A stretch of 15,164 nucleotides of DNA, from the IMG/VR virus record IMGVR_UViG_2703718819_000014, positions 1 through 15,164 of that record; one strand, given 5' to 3'. Each line of letters begins with the position of its first letter. Position 1 is the stretch's first letter. Below the pieces are notes generated by a model. The model saw nothing but the letters and a program-made list of their open reading frames with translations. It ran no database searches and had not been told where the DNA came from. This stretch comes from a virus. Taxonomy: Duplodnaviria > Heunggongvirae > Uroviricota > Caudoviricetes. Of the stretch, positions 2,179 to 14,727 are shown in pieces. The position numbers were made by a program, and so were the translations under genes.

Positions 2179-3006
2179 TTATTTAATCTGGATAAATGGT
2201 GTATTGGCACCACTGGTCATGTATTGCGGCAGTGTACCGTTCCACTTGTTGATGGCTTCCAGCTCCATGACGCCAGGGTTCTGGCGCAGAGCTTCGCCGC
2301 GTAAACGAATGGCATCGGCTTCTGCCAGGGCTTTTGTTCGAATGGCATCAGCCTGTCCGGCAGCTTCTGCACGCAGCATGTTGGCCTCCGCTTCACGTTG
2401 CTTGACTTCCTGTTCGCGCTGCAGGGTTTTCTGGTTTGCCGTGACTTTGGCGTTAATGCTGTCGATAACGGTTGGCGGGTATTCCGGTTTACCTACATAA
2501 GAGAGGCTCATTACCTGAACGCCGATGGGGGTCATCTCTTCCTGAATGTCTTTAAGTGCGGCATCCAGTAGTTCAGACTTGCCGCCGTCGATAAATTTGT
2601 CGGTGGTCATTTTGCTGGCCAGTCGATTGAGTGCGTCGGCGATCTTCTGGCGCAGGTCAGTGGCGGTAATGTCATCCACGCCTTTGCGGTAGGTCTGAAA
2701 CACCGTGGTAACTTTGGATGGATCAACTTTGTAGGCAACACCGATGTGATAGCCGATGGTTGTGCCGTCACTCATCTGGAAGCTGAACGGCTCATCGTAG
2801 GTCTTCATTTGTTTGAAGGTTGGGAAGATGTAAACTTCAGTATTCCAGCCAGTCCAGTAGCGACCAACACCGACCACCTCACCGACGCCTTTATCGTCGC
2901 CCAGTTTATTTACTTTGATGCCAACATTACCGGGTTCAACGCGATCGCAGCCGACAAGGCCAATGGTCGGCAGAACAATGGCTAAAGCAAAAATAATTTT
3001 TTTCAT
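2179..3006 (-). CDS. SPFH/band-7 (HflK/C, flotillin-like) domain lipoprotein
   Basis: 275-aa ORF; N-terminal signal peptide with lipobox (MKKIIFALAIVLPTIGLVGC); central region of SPFH type; C-terminal Ala/Glu/Arg-rich coiled-coil (QREQEVKQREAEANMLRAEAAGQADAIRTKALAEADAIRLRGEA); AAGGA RBS 6 nt upstream; ATG overlaps the stop of the upstream ORF (ATGA). Confidence 0.8.
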   Translation of the reverse strand: MKKIIFALAIVLPTIGLVGCDRVEPGNVGIKVNKLGDDKGVGEVVGVGRYWTGWNTEVYIFPTFKQMKTYDEPFSFQMSDGTTIGYHIGVAYKVDPSKVTTVFQTYRKGVDDITATDLRQKIADALNRLASKMTTDKFIDGGKSELLDAALKDIQEEMTPIGVQVMSLSYVGKPEYPPTVIDSINAKVTANQKTLQREQEVKQREAEANMLRAEAAGQADAIRTKALAEADAIRLRGEALRQNPGVMELEAINKWNGTLPQYMTSGANTPFIQIK

Positions 3007-3191
3007 TTTTTATCCTTAGTGAAAGAAAGACCCTTGTAAATGGCATAAATGCAGGGCGGGGTCAGAAACGCCAGTGCAAAGCCAGAAGTAACTGCTATCG
3101 TATCCTTCATGGATATAAGGAACGGAACGAGTAATCCGTAAATGCATGCGATAATTGCCAGTAAAATTACTATTGTGAAATACAGTCTCAT
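3003..3191 (-). CDS. Small two-helix membrane protein (62 aa), SPFH partner
   Basis: Two hydrophobic segments (FTIVILLAIIACIYGLLVPFLI and AVTSGFALAFLTPPCIYAIY); stop overlaps the SPFH start codon, implying translational coupling. RBS is weak and the start is uncertain. Confidence 0.5.
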   Translation of the reverse strand: MRLYFTIVILLAIIACIYGLLVPFLISMKDTIAVTSGFALAFLTPPCIYAIYKGLSFTKDKK

Positions 3192-3335
3192 TGGTATGTG
3201 GTATCCCGATATTTTTAACTGACAGACAGCGCAATAAAGAGAATAATGATTTCTGTTATTGTCAGTACTGTGGCAAGGATTAAAAGCAGTTTTACTCTGC
3301 TTAATTCACGGTTGTTTTTCATATAAATGGTTAGT

Positions 3336-3360
3336 AAAAAACGGAAGAATTATATTCTTC
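3336..3360 (-). terminator. Intrinsic terminator ending the 3-ORF cargo cassette
   Basis: On the minus strand: GAAGAAT / 3-nt loop / ATTCTTC hairpin followed by CGTTTTTT, 16 nt after the stop of ORF 3376..3948. AT-rich stem, so moderate strength. Confidence 0.5.
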
Positions 3361-3375
3361 TTAATATTTAATGTG

Positions 3376-3948
3376 TCACTGGCCTTCTGGCATACCATGA
3401 GTATTCAGGTCGTTAATCATTTCATCCAGAAGGAGTTCAAGCCCTTCTCGCCCCATGTCTGAAACAATGAAACCTTTATCTGGGTATGTAATGAGCATTT
3501 TCTGATAAAGAAACAGCGCTCTACCCATTCCTTCTGCCTCGCCGTATTTTTGAATTAAATTCCATTCAATATACTGCTGTAAGGCAAACCGAATGGGGCC
3601 GGGATATATCGTCATAACCCCATGCTTCCCGTTATATATTACGGCGCGATCTGTTGTTCCGTGTTCATTCGGGACATCAATTGTGCCGTTCTTGTCTTCT
3701 TCTTCGTTGATGAATGTCGTCACATACAACCATCGCCACTGGGCAACCTTCATCTCAACCGGAAGTTTTCCCAGTAATCCTGCTTCGTCAGCTTGCGCGA
3801 GACACTGAAGGATACGTAAACCTCGCACATTAGGAGTATCGAATTCTCCAGCATCCAGACGGCGTATGGCGTCGTGATAATCAATAGTCATACTGCCTGT
3901 TTGTATACCATTGGCTGTTGCTTCAGCCTGGAATTCAGCGTATTGCAT
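3376..3948 (-). CDS. Hypothetical protein (190 aa)
   Basis: ORF with ATG at 3948, 5 nt after the stop of the upstream 60-aa ORF (RBS inside that ORF); followed by a terminator. No motif I can name. Confidence 0.6.
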   Translation of the reverse strand: MQYAEFQAEATANGIQTGSMTIDYHDAIRRLDAGEFDTPNVRGLRILQCLAQADEAGLLGKLPVEMKVAQWRWLYVTTFINEEEDKNGTIDVPNEHGTTDRAVIYNGKHGVMTIYPGPIRFALQQYIEWNLIQKYGEAEGMGRALFLYQKMLITYPDKGFIVSDMGREGLELLLDEMINDLNTHGMPEGQ

Positions 3949-3953
3949 GAAAT

Positions 3954-4136
3954 TTATTCCTCATCTTCATCTGCTGGTGCAATAACGTCATATCCTGCCT
4001 TTTCTGCAATAAACAGGAATGTTGAAAGATTTCCTACAAATTCATCGTCATGAACATGACGAATTAATATTACTTTCCCGTTTTTGATGGTCAGCAATAC
4101 TCTGGTTTGTTCGTGTTCTGCTGTTTTCTGATGCAT
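3954..4136 (-). CDS. Hypothetical small protein (60 aa) with acidic C-terminus
   Basis: ATG at 4136 with GGGAG 7 nt upstream; C-terminus ...APADEDEE; tightly coupled to the 190-aa ORF downstream. Confidence 0.5.
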   Translation of the reverse strand: MHQKTAEHEQTRVLLTIKNGKVILIRHVHDDEFVGNLSTFLFIAEKAGYDVIAPADEDEE

Positions 4137-4540
4137 TATTATCTCCCGTATGCTTTACGCAGAAACAAGCAGGCAATATGCATGTAATTTTCACCGTGTT
4201 GTGCAATAAGACAGGCTGTTTTGTGTGATGCCTTATGTTTTATAAAAGTCATAATAAAGCCTCCAGTGGATTAAGTGTGTGATAATCCCCGGCTATTAAG
4301 CCGTAATATATTATTCGCAGATGACTTGTTTTATTTAACTGGATAGTTCTGTTTCGGCTGCTGCTTCAGCATAGCAACGTGCAAATTCAAGAACTTCATC
4401 ACCTGTTCTTTTTATTGCATCGTTGTCTTACATTTGTAATACGACAACTGCGCATAATAAATCATGGATATTGTTTGCAAAGGAATCCGGTGCCAGGCAT
4501 AAGCCTTCATACTTATCATGGATATTGCCAGTCATTGTTG

Positions 4541-5233
4541 CTACTCCTTTGCTTCTGATTTTCCCGTTAACAACCACACCAGGTCACAATTAAGCGCACT
4601 GGCCAGTGGTACTATCTGATCAGCAGGAACTTCACAGATGCCGCATTCCCAGTCGTTTATGGGGTCACTATAGGTATGAATCATGCGGGCAAGATCAGAT
4701 TCGGTTAATCCCAGTTTTGTACGGGCGCTTTTGATGCGTGCGCCAATACTTTCCACATGGACTTCAGGCACATTTACGCGAATAACTGACTCGCTGTTTT
4801 TTTCACTCAGCAGAGAAAGCGGATCGCATCCCAGGACGTTTGCCAGGGGGATAAGCATGCTGATGGTTGGCTCGTACTCTCCACTCTCCCATTGCAGAAT
4901 AATCTCTTCGTCAAGATCGAGTAGTCTGGCTAGTTCGGTAGTCGTCAAGCCGCAGGCTTCACGTTTTGTGCGTATGCAGGCTATCTTGTTGCCTGAGCGA
5001 ATAGAATGTTGTTGTTTTGTCGATGCGATCGCTAAAGCATATTCATGAGTAAATTCCAGCACATCAAACCCAACCTCTTTTAATCGCGTATCATCCAGGA
5101 GGTTGAAGGTGCGAACAGCACTGAGCAGGTTTGCGATGGTTAATGCAAAAGAATCGAGGTCTAAATCATCACATAAAACCTTGTTGTAAGTATTGAGGCT
5201 ACATGTTTTTGGTGTTGTTTGTAAGGCTTCCAT
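4541..5233 (-). CDS. Tandem-HTH (two XRE-type helix-turn-helix domains) DNA-binding protein
   Basis: Two consecutive XRE-like HTH segments (...GLTTTELARLLDLDEEIILQWESGEYEPTISMLIPLANVLGCDP... and ...GLTESDLARMIHTYSDPINDWECGICEVPADQIVPLASALNCDLVWLL...) after an ~85-aa N-terminal region of unknown type. First in-frame codon at 5269 is TTG; the ATG at 5233 is preferred. Directly downstream of and co-oriented with the cI-like gene. Confidence 0.7.
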   Translation of the reverse strand: MEALQTTPKTCSLNTYNKVLCDDLDLDSFALTIANLLSAVRTFNLLDDTRLKEVGFDVLEFTHEYALAIASTKQQHSIRSGNKIACIRTKREACGLTTTELARLLDLDEEIILQWESGEYEPTISMLIPLANVLGCDPLSLLSEKNSESVIRVNVPEVHVESIGARIKSARTKLGLTESDLARMIHTYSDPINDWECGICEVPADQIVPLASALNCDLVWLLTGKSEAKE

Positions 5234-5315
5234 ATCATCACCATGCAATTCTAAGTTGAAGTTAATCAATATATAATTGATGGTGAGATATTATGTGTCA
5301 GGTAAACTAGTGTCA

Positions 5316-5340
5316 ATCAAAAATTGATAAACTTGATTTT
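5316..5340. promoter_or_regulatory. Operator-like palindrome plus an 11-mer shared with the cI/cro intergenic region
   Basis: Perfect 13-bp palindrome ATCAAAAATTGAT (5316-5328), immediately followed by AACTTGATTTT (5330-5340), which recurs exactly at 6108-6118. Lies between the cI stop and the tandem-HTH gene start. Confidence 0.35.
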
Positions 5341-5380
5341 TTTGTAGTGGGTGACAAATAATTTAATTTAAAATCAACAA

Positions 5381-6070
5381 CTAACCAAATCTGTTGATAT
5401 TGAATGGTACAGATGAGATGACTTTTGACTGGATATACAGCAGCGCCATTCCCTCTTTTTCGATGCTCCACGGCTGATAGTTGGGATTGTCTGATAAGAC
5501 CATGATCTTGCTTCCAATTTTTTGAAGTCGTTTGACGTAACATTCGCCATCAAAGCAAAATGCATAAATGCCATCACCGTCAAAATAAGTTACTGTTTTA
5601 TCTAAAAACAGTAAGTCACCTGGGGCGATTGTTGGGGCCATGCTGTCCCCTCTGGCGTTACCGATTTCTATGTTCTTGAATGCTCTGTTACCGACCAGGC
5701 GGCGGGCATATTCAGGATCAAGTTCTATTGAGCGTACTACATCAATTAGATCTCCCCGTACATGAGTTCCGTCGCCGCAGCTGAATTCAACATCCAGCAC
5801 ATTGAACACAACGCTGTCTTCTCTTGTATGGTGTTTTTCAGCTGAAGAGTGTGTCGATGAGGTATCTTCACCCAAAAACCAGGATTGTGGATAACCACTA
5901 ATTACTGATAGTTGTGCAAGTTTATCGCTTCTGGGAAACGTCTTTCCTGTAGTCCAGTATTGTACTGATTGTGCGCTTACACCCAGCTTACGGGCTAGTT
6001 CAGCCTGACTCCAGCCTTTTGTTTTCAGCATCATTGCTATCCGATTTTCTGTGCTTTTTACATTCTTCAT
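5381..6070 (-). CDS. CI-like prophage repressor (HTH + S24 LexA-type autopeptidase)
   Basis: N-terminal XRE HTH (GWSQAELARKLGVSAQSVQYWTTGKTFP); C-terminal S24 signature with Ser in GDSMAPTI and Lys in CYVKRLQK; divergent from a cro-like gene across a 130-bp repeat-rich region. Start chosen at M11 of the track ORF (MKNVK...). Confidence 0.85.
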   Translation of the reverse strand: MKNVKSTENRIAMMLKTKGWSQAELARKLGVSAQSVQYWTTGKTFPRSDKLAQLSVISGYPQSWFLGEDTSSTHSSAEKHHTREDSVVFNVLDVEFSCGDGTHVRGDLIDVVRSIELDPEYARRLVGNRAFKNIEIGNARGDSMAPTIAPGDLLFLDKTVTYFDGDGIYAFCFDGECYVKRLQKIGSKIMVLSDNPNYQPWSIEKEGMALLYIQSKVISSVPFNINRFG

Positions 6071-6100
6071 GGTGAGTTCCTGTCGAGGCTTTATACACAT

Positions 6101-6202
6101 AAATATTAACTTGATTTTAGTGTATTCGATCCTTTTGAAACTTGCATGTTAATTTATTCTTGATGTATTCTTGATTTGTAAAGTTAATGTTGGAGCTGTG
6201 CT
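6101..6202. promoter_or_regulatory. Divergent immunity promoter/operator region (PRM/PR-like)
   Basis: AT-rich intergenic region between divergent repressor genes. Contains tandem direct repeats TATTCTTGAT (6155-6164, 6166-6175), a degenerate copy GTATTCGAT (6122-6130), and AACTTGATTTT (6108-6118); all share a TTGAT core. Individual -35/-10 hexamers were not confidently assigned. Confidence 0.5.
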
Positions 6203-7249: not shown

Positions 7250-7268
7250 TTATGCTCACAGGTAGCAC

Positions 7269-7448
7269 ATGCAAGTACTCAATCGCTGGTTCCGTGATGG
7301 AAGGGGGCGTCGCGTCCACGTTATACGCTGGGAGCCTGAAACACAGCGCGTTATCTATCTTCGCAAAGACTACCCGCATGAGTGCTTTAGTCCTTTGTGG
7401 AAATTCAGGCGTGATTTTGTTGAGTGTGAAGGAACACCAGCATATTGA
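7269..7448 (+). CDS. Small basic hypothetical protein (59 aa), not in the ORF track
   Basis: ATG at 7269 in a different frame from track ORF 7252..8277; translation MQVLNRWFRDGRGRRVHVIRWEPETQRVIYLRKDYPHECFSPLWKFRRDFVECEGTPAY looks protein-like (balanced composition, Trp/Cys spacing); just below the 60-aa threshold. Confidence 0.4.
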   Translation: MQVLNRWFRDGRGRRVHVIRWEPETQRVIYLRKDYPHECFSPLWKFRRDFVECEGTPAY

Positions 7449-7725
7449 TTCTGCAATTCCGGGACGTTACACTGTTCCGGCACCTTATAAAGCGGGTGCC
7501 GGGCGTGGAAACCCGAAATTCAATATAGAGCACAACCGCGCTCATGCGGTTTTTTCGTGTCATGAGCATCGTTACGCCCAAATTATGGTGGGGCGTGCAG
7601 GGCCAACTTCGGTTGGGCCGGGTTCTATGTTGACCGGTATTTCCACCCCTGTACGTCTCACCACCTATATGGTCGTGGAAAGCCTTGGTGGTGAGTTCAT
7701 TGAATTCAACATAGGGGCTGTCACC

Positions 7726-8277
7726 ATGACTACTCTCCCAACCCAATCTCACCCTGAAATCACGATTATCAATGGTCGCGTTGTCACCACATCTCTTGCA
7801 GTAGCTAATTACTTTACTAAACGGCATGAGCGGGTTTTAGATAGAATTAGAAACCTCGAATGTTCCGCTGAATTTACTGAACACAATTTTGTGTTAAGTG
7901 AATACACCGACGCATCAGGCCGCAAACTCCCTTGTTACCAAATCACCCGCGACGGTTTTGCATTTCTTGCTATGGGTTTCACGGGTAAACGTGCTGCCCG
8001 GTTCAAAGAAGCATACATCAATGCCTTTAACCAGATGGAGAGGTGCTTATCAGGAGTTGGTGCGGCTGATATGCCATCTGTCGCACAAAACGCCAGAGGC
8101 GTATACCTGCATTTGCGAGAAATCCACCAAATCTGGACAAGCCAGCTTTATCCCATGCTTAAGGCTGTTGAATCTCCGCTGGCTAGCAAACTGTACGACC
8201 GTGTAGGTGATGCTGTTTTTGGTGCTGCACTTGTTGATTCCAGACTGAACGGTTCTGACAAGGAGGCGCACCCATGA
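7726..8277 (+). CDS. Rha-family phage regulatory protein, paralog 2
   Basis: Internal ATG of track ORF 7252..8277; from MTTLPTQSHPEITIINGRVVTTSLAVANYFTKRHERVLDRIRNL ... YQITRDGFAFLAMGFTGKRAARFKEAYINAFNQME follows the Rha-domain pattern. The upstream 474 nt of the long ORF lacks coding signals. Confidence 0.7.
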   Translation: MTTLPTQSHPEITIINGRVVTTSLAVANYFTKRHERVLDRIRNLECSAEFTEHNFVLSEYTDASGRKLPCYQITRDGFAFLAMGFTGKRAARFKEAYINAFNQMERCLSGVGAADMPSVAQNARGVYLHLREIHQIWTSQLYPMLKAVESPLASKLYDRVGDAVFGAALVDSRLNGSDKEAHP

Positions 8278-13922: not shown

Positions 13923-14152
13923 CTCACAATTCAGGCGGTTGACTGTTGTCTGGTTTGCGGGGAGTTTGTTAAAAGAAACTGGCATGGTGAATCCCCCTGT
14001 GCGGAGGGGCAATCAGCAACTGGTGTTTTGTCACCGACCCTTATCCTTTCTGTGCGGGTTCAGGTGCTGATACTGAACTCACCGGGAGGCACCCGGCACC
14101 ATGCAATGGCACATAGCGCCACTCTCCAGCCCCTCTCCGGAGGGGCTTTTCT
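13923..14152 (+). ncRNA. Candidate structured sRNA module, copy 1 (includes its terminator 14129-14152)
   Basis: Conserved blocks shared with copy 2 at identical spacing: CTCACAATTCAG, TTGACn (+16), TTTGTTAAAA (+42), GCATGGTGAATCCCCCTGnGCGGAGGGGC (+59), CTGAACTCACCGGGAGGCACCCGGCACCATG, then hairpin GCCCCTC/TCCG/GAGGGGC + TTTT. The 5' GCATGGTG can pair with 3' CACCATGC, closing a 123-nt domain. Confidence 0.4.
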
Positions 14153-14341
14153 GTGCCGGATACATCACAGTTTCTGGAACCTTGGGTACTACAGTATCAG
14201 TCAGGGTGCTATATTTTCAGATGTGATGAAAGCCTGTCAGCAGGCAGGGCGTATCGGAAATGACCCAGTAGAGAAAACGTTGACTCAGATACCGGTGCTG
14301 AGTTACCGGGAAACCGGCATCACATGACCGCTATCCTTCCA

Positions 14342-14405: not shown

Positions 14406-14640
14406 CTCACAATTCAGTAAGTTGACAGTTGCCTGTCAGACTGGGCATTTGTTAAAAAAATTTCGCATGGTGAATCCCCCTGAGCGGAGGGGCGACTGGT
14501 GACGGTATAATCTCTGATTATCAAAACGAGAATGACGCGGGTTTAGTGGCACCGGGCTGAACTCACCGGGAGGCACCCGGCACCATGTGCATGATGATAC
14601 AGATACACGGCTTTAGCCCCTCTCCGGAGGGGCTTTCTTG
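14406..14640 (+). ncRNA. Candidate structured sRNA module, copy 2 (includes its terminator 14616-14640)
   Basis: Same block order and spacing as copy 1 (blocks at +16, +42, +59); closing helix GCATGGTG ... CACCATGT spans 124 nt (the one change gives a G-U pair); intervening sequence differs from copy 1; terminator hairpin GCCCCTC/TCCG/GAGGGGC followed by a weak U-tract (TTTCTT). Confidence 0.4.
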
Positions 14641-14645
14641 TGGGC

Positions 14646-14672
14646 AAAAAAAAAGCCCGAGTGGGTTCGGGC
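14646..14672 (-). terminator. Intrinsic terminator on the minus strand, back-to-back with the copy-2 terminator
   Basis: On the minus strand: GCCCGA / ACCCAC / TCGGGC hairpin followed by nine T (plus-strand A9 at 14646-14654). Confidence 0.6.
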
Positions 14673-14694
14673 AACAGCATGAGATATACATTTT

Positions 14695-14700
14695 TATAAT
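14695..14700 (+). promoter_or_regulatory. Candidate -10 element (TATAAT) of a late (PR'-like) promoter
   Basis: Perfect TATAAT with AT-rich upstream sequence and no clear -35; about 30 nt upstream of a strong terminator and 155 nt upstream of the esterase start. Confidence 0.35.
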
Positions 14701-14727
14701 CGAATGGATTTTAACCAGAATTCATAA

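What the first reader, a model, noticed from the sequence alone, without database searches (positions are those of the whole stretch)
3376..4252. Self-contained, terminated cassette of orphan ORFs (37, 60 and 190 aa) at the head of the leftward early operon
A tightly coupled set sits where lambda has N: an unlisted 37-aa ORF (4139-4252, GGAGG RBS, stop overlapping the next RBS), a 60-aa acidic-tailed protein (GGGAG RBS), and a 190-aa protein whose ATG lies 5 nt after the previous stop. The unit ends in its own terminator (3336-3360) and follows a 400-bp AT-rich leader. None of the proteins resembles N, kil, gam or any family I can name. A compact, insulated unit at this position is typical of moron-type cargo (anti-defence, host takeover, or toxin/antitoxin-like pairs).
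Basis: partly seen in the sequence, partly recalled or inferred. Interest (0 to 1): 0.6.

Follow-up and report, generated by a model that had tools for sequence, protein, structure and literature searches.

The report
Conserved small early-operon genes, function unknown
The three small genes are real and conserved parts of the leftward early operon of a Shiga-toxin-type lambdoid prophage, not an insulated orphan cassette, and no function could be assigned to them; the 37-codon gene is the one notable piece, because it recurs in related phages of five bacterial genera and is rarely annotated.

Summary
All three ORFs are under purifying selection (dN/dS 0.09-0.22).

Most of the framing does not hold:
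- **Not orphans.** The 190-aa protein belongs to PHROG 1515 and the 60-aa protein to PHROG 340. The 37-aa ORF is present in all 21 related phage and prophage loci examined (Escherichia, Salmonella, Klebsiella, Cronobacter and Aeromonas).
- **Not at the head of the operon.** A DicA-like double-HTH gene and a 66-codon gene come first.
- **The "AT-rich leader" is that 66-codon gene.** In this window it is broken by a TCA->TAA nonsense codon.
- **No own promoter.** The "terminator" is a weak 7-bp A/U-rich hairpin found only in lineages where the 190-aa gene abuts the SPFH module.
- **Not an obligate pair.** The 60-aa and 190-aa genes occur apart in other phages.

Function is unassigned. There are no Pfam, NCBIfam, PADLOC or PDB matches, and a confident model of the 190-aa protein has no structural neighbour. 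The one lead is that the 60-aa protein resembles the C-terminal part of an "anti-repressor" PHROG.

The best reading is a set of translationally coupled genes in the repressor-controlled early-left operon, whose products probably act by binding other proteins. Interest is modest.

The parts
4139..4252 (-). 37-codon micro-gene (p37). Basic protein, pI 9.8, with C-terminal motif L[FY]L[RK]KAYG[RK].
   Evidence: ORF. dN/dS 0.09-0.17. Variable sites biased to third codon positions and constant length. Present in all 21 related phage/prophage loci from five genera, always followed within 1-10 nt by the next ATG. No Pfam, PHROG or NCBIfam hit.
4260..4264 (-). GGAGG ribosome-binding site of p37
   Evidence: Read from the sequence. 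GGAG/GAGG is kept in the E. coli relatives.
4253..4308 (-). 56-nt segment upstream of p37, conserved among E. coli lineages. It contains a CCGGGGATT motif.
   Evidence: The BLAST boundary falls at query position 179. Alignments. No conserved RNA structure and no Rfam match.
3954..4136 (-). 60-aa acidic protein (p60), a member of PHROG 340
3376..3948 (-). 190-aa acidic protein (p190), a member of PHROG 1515
3336..3360 (-). Weak hairpin plus U6: a candidate, unproven intrinsic terminator
   Evidence: 7-bp stem with 2 G-C pairs, -6.4 kcal/mol, z -0.86. Not called by the scan. Present only in lineages where p190 abuts the 62-aa/SPFH module.
4335..4535 (-). Upstream 66-codon gene (PHROG 4587), broken here by a nonsense codon TAA at 4428-4430.
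   Evidence: Intact and annotated in relatives as WP_000147364. Alignment shows TCA->TAA. PHROG 4587 at E 3.7e-36.
4541..5269 (-). 242-aa double-HTH (DicA-like) regulator, the first gene after the pL-like promoter
   Evidence: HTH_3 twice. PHROG 4836 "CII-like regulator" at E 5.7e-92. NCBIfam DicA subfamily at E 8e-17.
5288..5316 (-). Promoter-like site TTGACA-17-TAATAT, the candidate early-left promoter
   Evidence: 10 of 12 matches. Flanked by TCAAT-N6-ATTGAT palindromes at 5266-5281 and 5313-5328. A 20-mer at 5327-5346 matches the cI-cro intergenic region at 6105-6124 in 17 of 20 positions; 0 of 300 shuffles reach this.
5381..6100 (-). CI/LexA-type repressor (HTH plus S24 peptidase)
   Evidence: NCBIfam LexA/UmuD hits. 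Annotated as phage repressor CI or XRE family regulator in relatives.

Best explanation
The three ORFs are genuine, conserved genes of the long leftward early operon of a lambdoid, Stx-phage-type prophage. They are not an autonomous cassette.

Transcription most likely starts at a repressor-controlled promoter between cI and the DicA-like HTH gene. It then runs through the HTH gene, the 66-codon gene (broken in this copy), p37, p60 and p190, and probably on through the 62-aa/SPFH genes towards xis and int. The three ORFs are translated by coupling, with 2-nt and 5-nt gaps and each ribosome-binding site lying in the end of the preceding ORF. They would therefore be made after repressor inactivation (induction or infection), not in the lysogen.

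The products are one basic 37-aa micro-protein and two acidic soluble proteins with no enzyme signature. They most likely act by binding other proteins: host factors or the phage's own regulators. For p60 there is a specific lead, since it is a free-standing copy of the C-terminal module of an anti-repressor family.

Shown: gene reality, synteny, coupling geometry and family membership. Inferred: the transcription unit, the timing of expression and the binding mode of action.
For: Gene reality: dN/dS 0.09-0.22 for all three ORFs and the codon-position bias of p37.

Operon context:
- About twelve co-directional genes run from cI to int, with gaps of 2-5 nt inside the trio.
- The only good leftward promoter-like site sits between cI and the HTH gene. 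It carries palindromic operator-like repeats and a 20-mer shared with the cI-cro region.
- No promoter-like site lies upstream of p37, and there is no excess of promoter- or terminator-like sites over shuffles.

Synteny: the order p37 -> (119 aa) -> p60 -> (ParE-like, ~130-140 aa) -> p190 -> (ORF6N anti-repressor) recurs in phages of E. coli, Salmonella (Fels-1), Klebsiella and Aeromonas (AsXd-1). Cronobacter ENT39118 carries p37 at the same place but no p60 or p190 homolog was detected there.

Coupling: p37 is followed by an ATG within 1-10 nt in every locus. p190 is followed directly by the next gene in 7 lineages.

The p60 domain link to anti-repressor PHROG 4792 holds for 16 of 24 family members.

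Protein charges: pI 9.8, 5.0 and 4.7 for p37, p60 and p190.
Against: - There are no transcript or protein data. Promoter and terminator calls rest on simple consensus scans in AT-rich DNA, where weak promoters are easily missed.
- The hairpin plus U6 at 3336-3360 may terminate some transcripts in this lineage.
- The nonsense codon in the upstream 66-codon gene leaves about 175 nt untranslated ahead of p37. This could reduce expression of the trio in this copy through Rho-dependent polarity.
- The binding mode of action is inferred only from size, charge, the absence of catalytic family matches and the partial domain match.
- p190 has an invariant polar motif (WRW...EE...NGT.D..N..G) that could equally mark an active site.
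Confidence: 0.6

Rival explanations
1. Autonomous moron cassette. The trio has its own promoter in the AT-rich stretch and its own terminator. It is expressed in the lysogen and provides anti-defence, exclusion or host-takeover functions.
For: - The slot after p37 is variable between otherwise similar prophages.
- A hairpin plus U6 follows p190 in this lineage.
- The proteins are acidic and uncharacterised.
- A neighbouring alternative cargo includes a ParE-like toxin.
Against: - No promoter-like site lies upstream of p37.
- The supposed leader is a broken gene.
- GC content is not distinct from the neighbours.
- The hairpin is weak and lineage-specific.
- p37, p60 and p190 keep the same order across genera, which is how backbone genes behave.
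- No PADLOC hit.
Confidence: 0.12
2. p60 and p190 form a toxin-antitoxin-like pair, with a small acidic antitoxin first and a larger toxin second.
For: - The two genes are adjacent with a 5-nt gap, in two E. coli lineages that have diverged to dS > 1.
- In other phages a p60 homolog sits directly upstream of a ParE-like toxin gene and overlaps it.
Against: - p60 occurs without p190 (Fels-1, FDAARGOS_944, Salmonella loci).
- p190 occurs without a detectable p60 (AsXd-1) or 1-3 genes away from it (Klebsiella P18-100, CharmingMan).
- The most constant neighbour of p60 is the upstream 119-aa gene, not a downstream toxin.
- Neither protein hits a TA family.
Confidence: 0.07
3. The trio is a regulatory module of the lysis-lysogeny switch. 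p60 would be a minimal anti-repressor-type binding domain acting on CI, on the DicA-like HTH protein or on an Ant protein. p37 and p190 would be co-factors.
For: - p60 matches the C-terminal module of anti-repressor PHROGs 4792 and 2379.
- The genes lie immediately downstream of two HTH regulators.
- In phi467 and CharmingMan p190 is directly followed by an annotated ORF6N-type anti-repressor gene. In Klebsiella P18-100 the following 235-aa gene was not checked.
- The neighbouring 66-codon gene is a paralog of the N-terminal domain of the HTH protein.
Against: - The match covers only about 42 residues of a 268-position profile.
- No anti-repressor in the fetched loci carries the p60 domain.
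- "Anti-repressor" is an annotation label of the PHROG, not a tested function.
- Nothing links p37 or p190 to regulation.
Confidence: 0.18
4. p37 is not a functional protein. It would be a leader or coupling ORF whose translation merely delivers ribosomes to the downstream genes.
For: It is always followed within 1-10 nt by the next start codon, and the ribosome-binding site of the next gene lies inside its last codons.
Against: The amino-acid sequence is conserved across genera while the codons vary. In the invariant KAYG[RK] end, Gly is encoded by GGG, GGT or GGA and Arg/Lys by AGA, AAA, CGG or AGG. dN/dS is about 0.1. A pure coupling ORF should not conserve its peptide.
Confidence: 0.08

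Closest known systems
Accessory small ORFs of the lambda pL operon / exo-xis region (orf60a, orf61, orf63, ea8.5, ea22, cIII, kil). From my own knowledge and PMC7093339 (abstract seen).
   Same: - Position between the immunity region and xis-int.
- Leftward, co-directional, small and mostly non-essential genes.
- Expressed from the early-left promoter after derepression.
- Mosaic distribution among lambdoid phages.
   Different: - No sequence similarity to any of them.
- This phage group has no recognisable N gene, exo/bet/gam or cIII in the left arm.
- Here the first genes are HTH regulators.
dicB operon of the E. coli K-12 Qin prophage (dicA - ydfA - ydfB - ydfC - dicF - dicB)
   Same: A DicA-type HTH regulator is followed in the same direction by a string of very small ORFs that ends at an integrase. 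The window's 242-aa protein hits the DicA NCBIfam model.
   Different: p37 shows no similarity to YdfA (DUF1391) and only 22% identity to YdfB in an unreliable alignment. No DicF-like RNA is present. No DicB homolog was found.
PHROG 1515 and PHROG 340, phage protein families of unknown function
   Same: Full-length, highly significant profile matches for p190 and p60.
   Different: Neither family has an assigned function, so membership names the proteins without explaining them.
Morons as defined for HK97/HK022-type phages: an extra gene with its own promoter and terminator inserted between backbone genes (my own knowledge)
   Same: The slot is variable between relatives, and a hairpin plus U-run follows the last gene in this lineage.
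   Different: - No own promoter was detected.
- The genes are translationally coupled to their upstream neighbours.
- Base composition is not distinct.
- The genes keep their order across genera.
Anti-repressor family PHROG 4792
   Same: p60 residues 12-53 align with profile positions 199-240. 16 of 24 family members match at E < 1e-3.
   Different: p60 lacks the remaining ~200 positions of the profile. It is a single small beta-beta-alpha domain.

Membership tests
PHROG 1515 (unknown function) | Significant full-length match to the family profile | tested here: met
   p190 residues 1-189 match profile positions 12-199 of 203, E 1.9e-92.
PHROG 340 (unknown function) | Significant match to the family profile | tested here: met
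   p60 residues 2-59 match profile positions 17-74 of 85, E 1.8e-21. All 24 aligned relatives match.
Anti-repressor PHROG 4792 | Match over most of the ~268-position profile | tested here: not met
   Only profile positions 199-240 are matched. This is a shared C-terminal module, not membership.
Moron (autonomous inserted gene unit) | Own promoter immediately upstream | tested here: not met
   No sigma-70-like site on the minus strand between 4253 and 4340. The site at 4481-4454 scores 9 of 12 and lies inside the broken 66-codon gene. The total count is below the shuffle expectation. This is a consensus scan only.
Moron (autonomous inserted gene unit) | Own intrinsic terminator | tested here: inconclusive
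   A hairpin plus U6 is present at 3336-3360 but is weak: 2 G-C pairs, z -0.86, not called by the scan. It is absent after p190 in 7 other lineages.
Moron (autonomous inserted gene unit) | Present or absent between the same flanking genes in close relatives | tested here: inconclusive
   p60 plus p190 are replaced by other genes in L003 and L004. However, p37 is always present, and p60 and p190 keep their relative order across genera.
Moron (autonomous inserted gene unit) | Base composition distinct from the neighbours | tested here: not met
   GC content is 0.455 (p190), 0.372 (p60) and 0.377 (p37), against 0.385 for the upstream interval, 0.454 for the HTH gene and 0.436 for cI.
Type II toxin-antitoxin pair | The two genes are obligately linked wherever either occurs | tested here: not met
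   p60 occurs alone in L003, L004, L010 and L017-L022. p190 occurs alone in L008. They are separated by 1-3 genes in L007 and L014.
Type II toxin-antitoxin pair | Homology of either partner to a known toxin or antitoxin family | tested here: not met
   No Pfam, NCBIfam or PADLOC hit. PDB sequence and fold searches were negative.
Lambda N-type antiterminator | N-terminal arginine-rich motif, with boxA/boxB nut sites nearby | tested here: not met
   p37 has 2 Arg and no arginine-rich stretch (sequence). No conserved hairpin lies upstream. No family hit.
Anti-defence protein | Homology to a described anti-defence family, or an inhibitory phenotype | not testable with these tools
   No anti-defence profile library was available. 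There were no literature hits for the accessions, PHROG ids or motifs.

The most novel reading that the evidence does not exclude
p37 is a previously unrecognised, near-universal micro-protein of this group of temperate phages (Hendrixvirinae-like and Stx/phiP27-like). It would bind a conserved host or phage target through its invariant L[FY]L[RK]KAYG[RK] end, and so control expression or activity of the early-left operon. In effect it would be an N/cIII-position regulator of a new type. p190, with a confident model and no structural neighbour, would be a new fold acting in host takeover or counter-defence.
Probability: 0.12. Interest if true: 0.6.

Novelty: new member of a known kind. Interest (0 to 1): 0.3.

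Why it matters
These genes sit in hundreds of E. coli genomes: 340 of 5,426 complete genomes carry the region, many of them Stx1- or Stx2-converting prophages. If any of the three proteins modulates induction, host physiology or defence systems, it would bear on Shiga-toxin phage biology.

The practical results of this check are threefold:
- The cassette idea should be replaced by an operon-backbone picture.
- A 32-37-codon gene conserved across five genera is missed by standard annotation.
- p190 is a good target for structure and function work, because its predicted fold has no known relative.

No function has been established.

Tried and rejected
**Family and structure searches**
- Pfam, NCBIfam and PADLOC scans of all three proteins gave nothing.
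- PDB sequence searches with single sequences and with profiles gave nothing below E about 0.1.
- Foldseek against BFVD for p190 found nothing at E <= 0.001. The AFDB50 library was unavailable.
- Domain fusions among longer p190 relatives carried no Pfam domains.

**Specific comparisons**
- p37 against K-12 YdfA and YdfB showed no similarity.
- I looked for the p60 domain in the anti-repressors of the fetched loci and found none.

**RNA elements**
- Rfam found nothing in 3100-5500.
- There is no conserved RNA structure upstream of p37.

**Literature**
- Searches by RefSeq accessions, PHROG ids and peptide motifs returned 0 papers.
- The mEp021 Gp17 small N-like antiterminator was considered as an analog of p37. 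I rejected it because Gp17 depends on a conserved arginine-rich motif and nut sites, both of which p37 lacks.

**Side issue**
- The 35-codon hydrophobic ORF at 3215-3322 was considered as a type I toxin. Its substitutions against relatives are 6 non-synonymous to 2 synonymous, which does not support coding.

Full report
**What the window is.** The window is the left arm and immunity/replication region of a lambdoid prophage. On the minus strand, running leftward, it carries:
- a CI/LexA-type repressor (5381-6100);
- a 242-aa double-HTH DicA-like regulator (4541-5269);
- the remains of a 66-codon gene (4335-4535);
- the three ORFs of the finding;
- a 62-aa membrane protein, an SPFH lipoprotein, a DUF5406 protein, xis and int.

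On the plus strand it carries cro, rha, ash, and O-, DnaC- and DnaB-like genes. The finding region is about 98% identical to Stx1-, Stx2a- and Stx2d-converting phages (LC5678xx series) and to prophages at yecE in O157, O55, O111, O26 and O145 strains. 340 of 5,426 complete E. coli genomes carry it.

The three ORFs are real genes:
- Against the ~74%-identical SE11/UMNF18 lineage, dN/dS is 0.09-0.10 for the 37-aa ORF, 0.12-0.22 for the 60-aa ORF and 0.10-0.15 for the 190-aa ORF.
- In the 37-codon ORF, 21 of 38 variable sites are third positions. 16 codons vary only synonymously. The length is 37 codons in all nine E. coli loci compared.

Four parts of the description fail:
1. **The leader.** The "400-bp AT-rich leader" is a 288-nt interval. 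It is mostly the ortholog of an annotated 66-codon gene (WP_000147364, PHROG 4587). In this window a TCA->TAA change at 4428-4430 interrupts it. Its GC content is no lower than that of the 37- and 60-aa genes.
2. **The position.** The trio is not at the head of the operon.
   - The only strong leftward promoter-like site is TTGACA-17-TAATAT at 5316-5288, between cI and the HTH gene.
   - It is flanked by TCAAT-N6-ATTGAT palindromes.
   - A nearby 20-mer is shared in 17 of 20 positions with the cI-cro intergenic region. None of 300 shuffles reaches that.
3. **The terminator.** The stem is 7 bp with two G-C pairs, the fold energy is -6.4 kcal/mol, and z is -0.86. The scan does not call it. It occurs only where the 190-aa gene abuts the 62-aa/SPFH module. 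In seven other lineages the next gene starts a few to ~15 nt after the 190-aa stop.
4. **Orphan status.** The proteins are not orphans, as the next paragraphs show.

**Families and distribution.**
- **p190** is a full-length member of PHROG 1515 (E 1.9e-92). A profile search of 1.84 billion representative proteins finds 117 clusters, nearly all single-domain proteins of 190-220 aa. Homologs at 41-46% identity occur in Klebsiella, Aeromonas and other Escherichia phages.
- **p60** is a member of PHROG 340. It has more than 514 clusters at 90% identity in Escherichia, Klebsiella, Salmonella, Raoultella and Citrobacter.
- **p37** has no PHROG, Pfam or NCBIfam hit. Even so, tblastn finds it in every one of the 21 related phage and prophage loci fetched, including Fels-1, phi467, Cronobacter ENT39118, Aeromonas AsXd-1 and Klebsiella phages. 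It is 32-37 codons long and usually unannotated.
  - Its conserved motif is ..YKTA.L...G...IA.L[FY]L[RK]KAYG[RK]-stop.
  - The codons for the invariant residues vary, so the conservation is at the protein level.
- The exact window sequences of all three proteins are already in public databases, on hundreds to more than 1,000 contigs. They are always labelled hypothetical or otherwise carry no functional name.

**Cassette or backbone.** Across genera the gene order recurs: p37 -> (119 aa, PHROG 1737) -> p60 -> (ParE-like 72 aa, then a ~130-140-aa gene) -> p190 -> (ORF6N anti-repressor). The window's lineage is the most compact version, with the three genes abutting.
- p60 occurs without p190, and p190 without a detectable p60.
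- The steadiest neighbour of p60 is the upstream 119-aa gene, with an ATGA overlap. It is not a downstream partner.
- p37 of the window type occurs with entirely different downstream genes in O103 12009 and FDAARGOS_944. The junction falls exactly at the p37 stop.

This is ordinary lambdoid mosaicism, with junctions at gene boundaries. The three genes behave as operon backbone, and the optional inserts behave more like cargo.

**Function.** No known family matches:
- Pfam, NCBIfam and PADLOC scans were negative.
- PDB sequence searches were negative.
- Rfam found nothing in 3100-5500.

The single lead concerns p60. Its residues 12-53 match the C-terminal module (positions 199-240 of 268) of PHROG 4792, which is annotated as anti-repressor. 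16 of 24 family members reproduce this match. p37 is basic (pI 9.8), while p60 and p190 are acidic (pI 5.0 and 4.7). Literature searches by accession, PHROG id and peptide motif found nothing.

**Most likely mechanism.** The trio is transcribed as part of the repressor-controlled early-left operon and translated by coupling. It would therefore be made on induction or infection. The products most likely work by binding host or phage proteins. That they are operon members rather than an autonomous unit I hold at about 0.6.

The rivals are:
- an autonomous moron expressed in the lysogen (0.12);
- a p60/p190 toxin-antitoxin pair (0.07);
- a switch-regulatory module built around the anti-repressor-like p60 (0.18; compatible with operon membership);
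- p37 as a mere coupling ORF (0.08).

**Comparison with what is known.** In position and style the genes resemble the small accessory ORFs of the lambda pL/exo-xis region and the ydfABC-dicB string downstream of DicA in Qin. There is no sequence relationship to either. The moron and TA definitions each fail on at least one tested feature, as set out in the membership table.

**Verdict.** The sequence observation is accurate in detail, but the framing as an insulated orphan cassette is not supported. These are new members of known but uncharacterised phage gene families in an ordinary early-left operon. Two things are worth keeping: the conserved and largely unannotated 37-aa micro-gene, and the p190 fold with no known relative. 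Interest is 0.3.

Noticed in passing
window 4335-4535 (-), stop codon at 4428-4430: The 66-codon gene between the HTH regulator and p37 is intact in relatives (WP_000147364). Here it carries a TCA->TAA nonsense mutation, which leaves a 35-aa fragment and about 175 nt of untranslated RNA ahead of p37. Polarity on the downstream genes is possible.
   Followed up: partly
window 4335-4535 and 4541-5269 (-): The 66-aa protein family (PHROG 4587/5451) is homologous to the N-terminal part (about residues 24-71) of the adjacent 242-aa double-HTH protein (PHROG 4836). It may be a free-standing copy of the regulator's N-terminal domain that modulates it.
   Followed up: partly
window 5266-5346 and 6105-6124: Operator-like elements: TCAAT-N6-ATTGAT palindromes at 5266-5281 and 5313-5328 bracket the pL-like promoter. 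A 20-mer at 5327-5346 matches the cI-cro intergenic region in 17 of 20 positions, and 0 of 300 shuffles reach this.
   Followed up: partly
window 7480-7556 (+) and 7581-7668 (+): Rfam IsrK (61.6 bits) and C4 antisense RNA (82.4 bits) lie inside the mechanically listed 341-aa ORF at 7252-8277, upstream of the ash-family gene. That long ORF is therefore probably over-extended, and the region is a P1/P7-type C4-controlled anti-repressor module.
   Followed up: no
window 13953-14158 (+), 14436-14645 (+), 14650-14702 (-): Two copies of sRNA STnc100 and one AsxR (anti-stx2 sRNA) lie at the right end of the window, as is typical of the late-promoter region of Stx phages.
   Followed up: no
window 3215-3322 (-), with a plus-strand promoter-like site at 3219-3247: A 35-codon very hydrophobic ORF sits in the 184-nt gap after p190, with an antisense promoter-like site (10 of 12 matches). 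This resembles a type I toxin layout. However, it has no ribosome-binding site, and 6 of 8 substitutions against relatives are non-synonymous, so coding is doubtful.
   Followed up: partly
window 2179-3191 (-): A 62-aa two-helix membrane protein (PHROG 1130, labelled moron/membrane protein) overlaps by 4 nt a 275-aa SPFH/Band-7 lipoprotein (PHROG 200). This is an NfeD/SPFH-like pair of unknown role in the phage, conserved in many relatives.
   Followed up: no
window 4284-4292 (-); also L007, L009, L010, L017 upstream of p37: A short motif, C(C/G)G(G/T)GGATT, recurs about 40 nt upstream of the p37 start in several genera, although the surrounding DNA is not conserved. No conserved RNA structure and no known site could be assigned.
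   Followed up: partly
L004 2736-2954 (-), L017 4188-4406 (+): In relatives that lack p190 at this spot, the p60 homolog is overlapped by a 72-aa ParE_like (PF24732) toxin-domain gene. p60-family proteins may be its partner there.
   Followed up: partly
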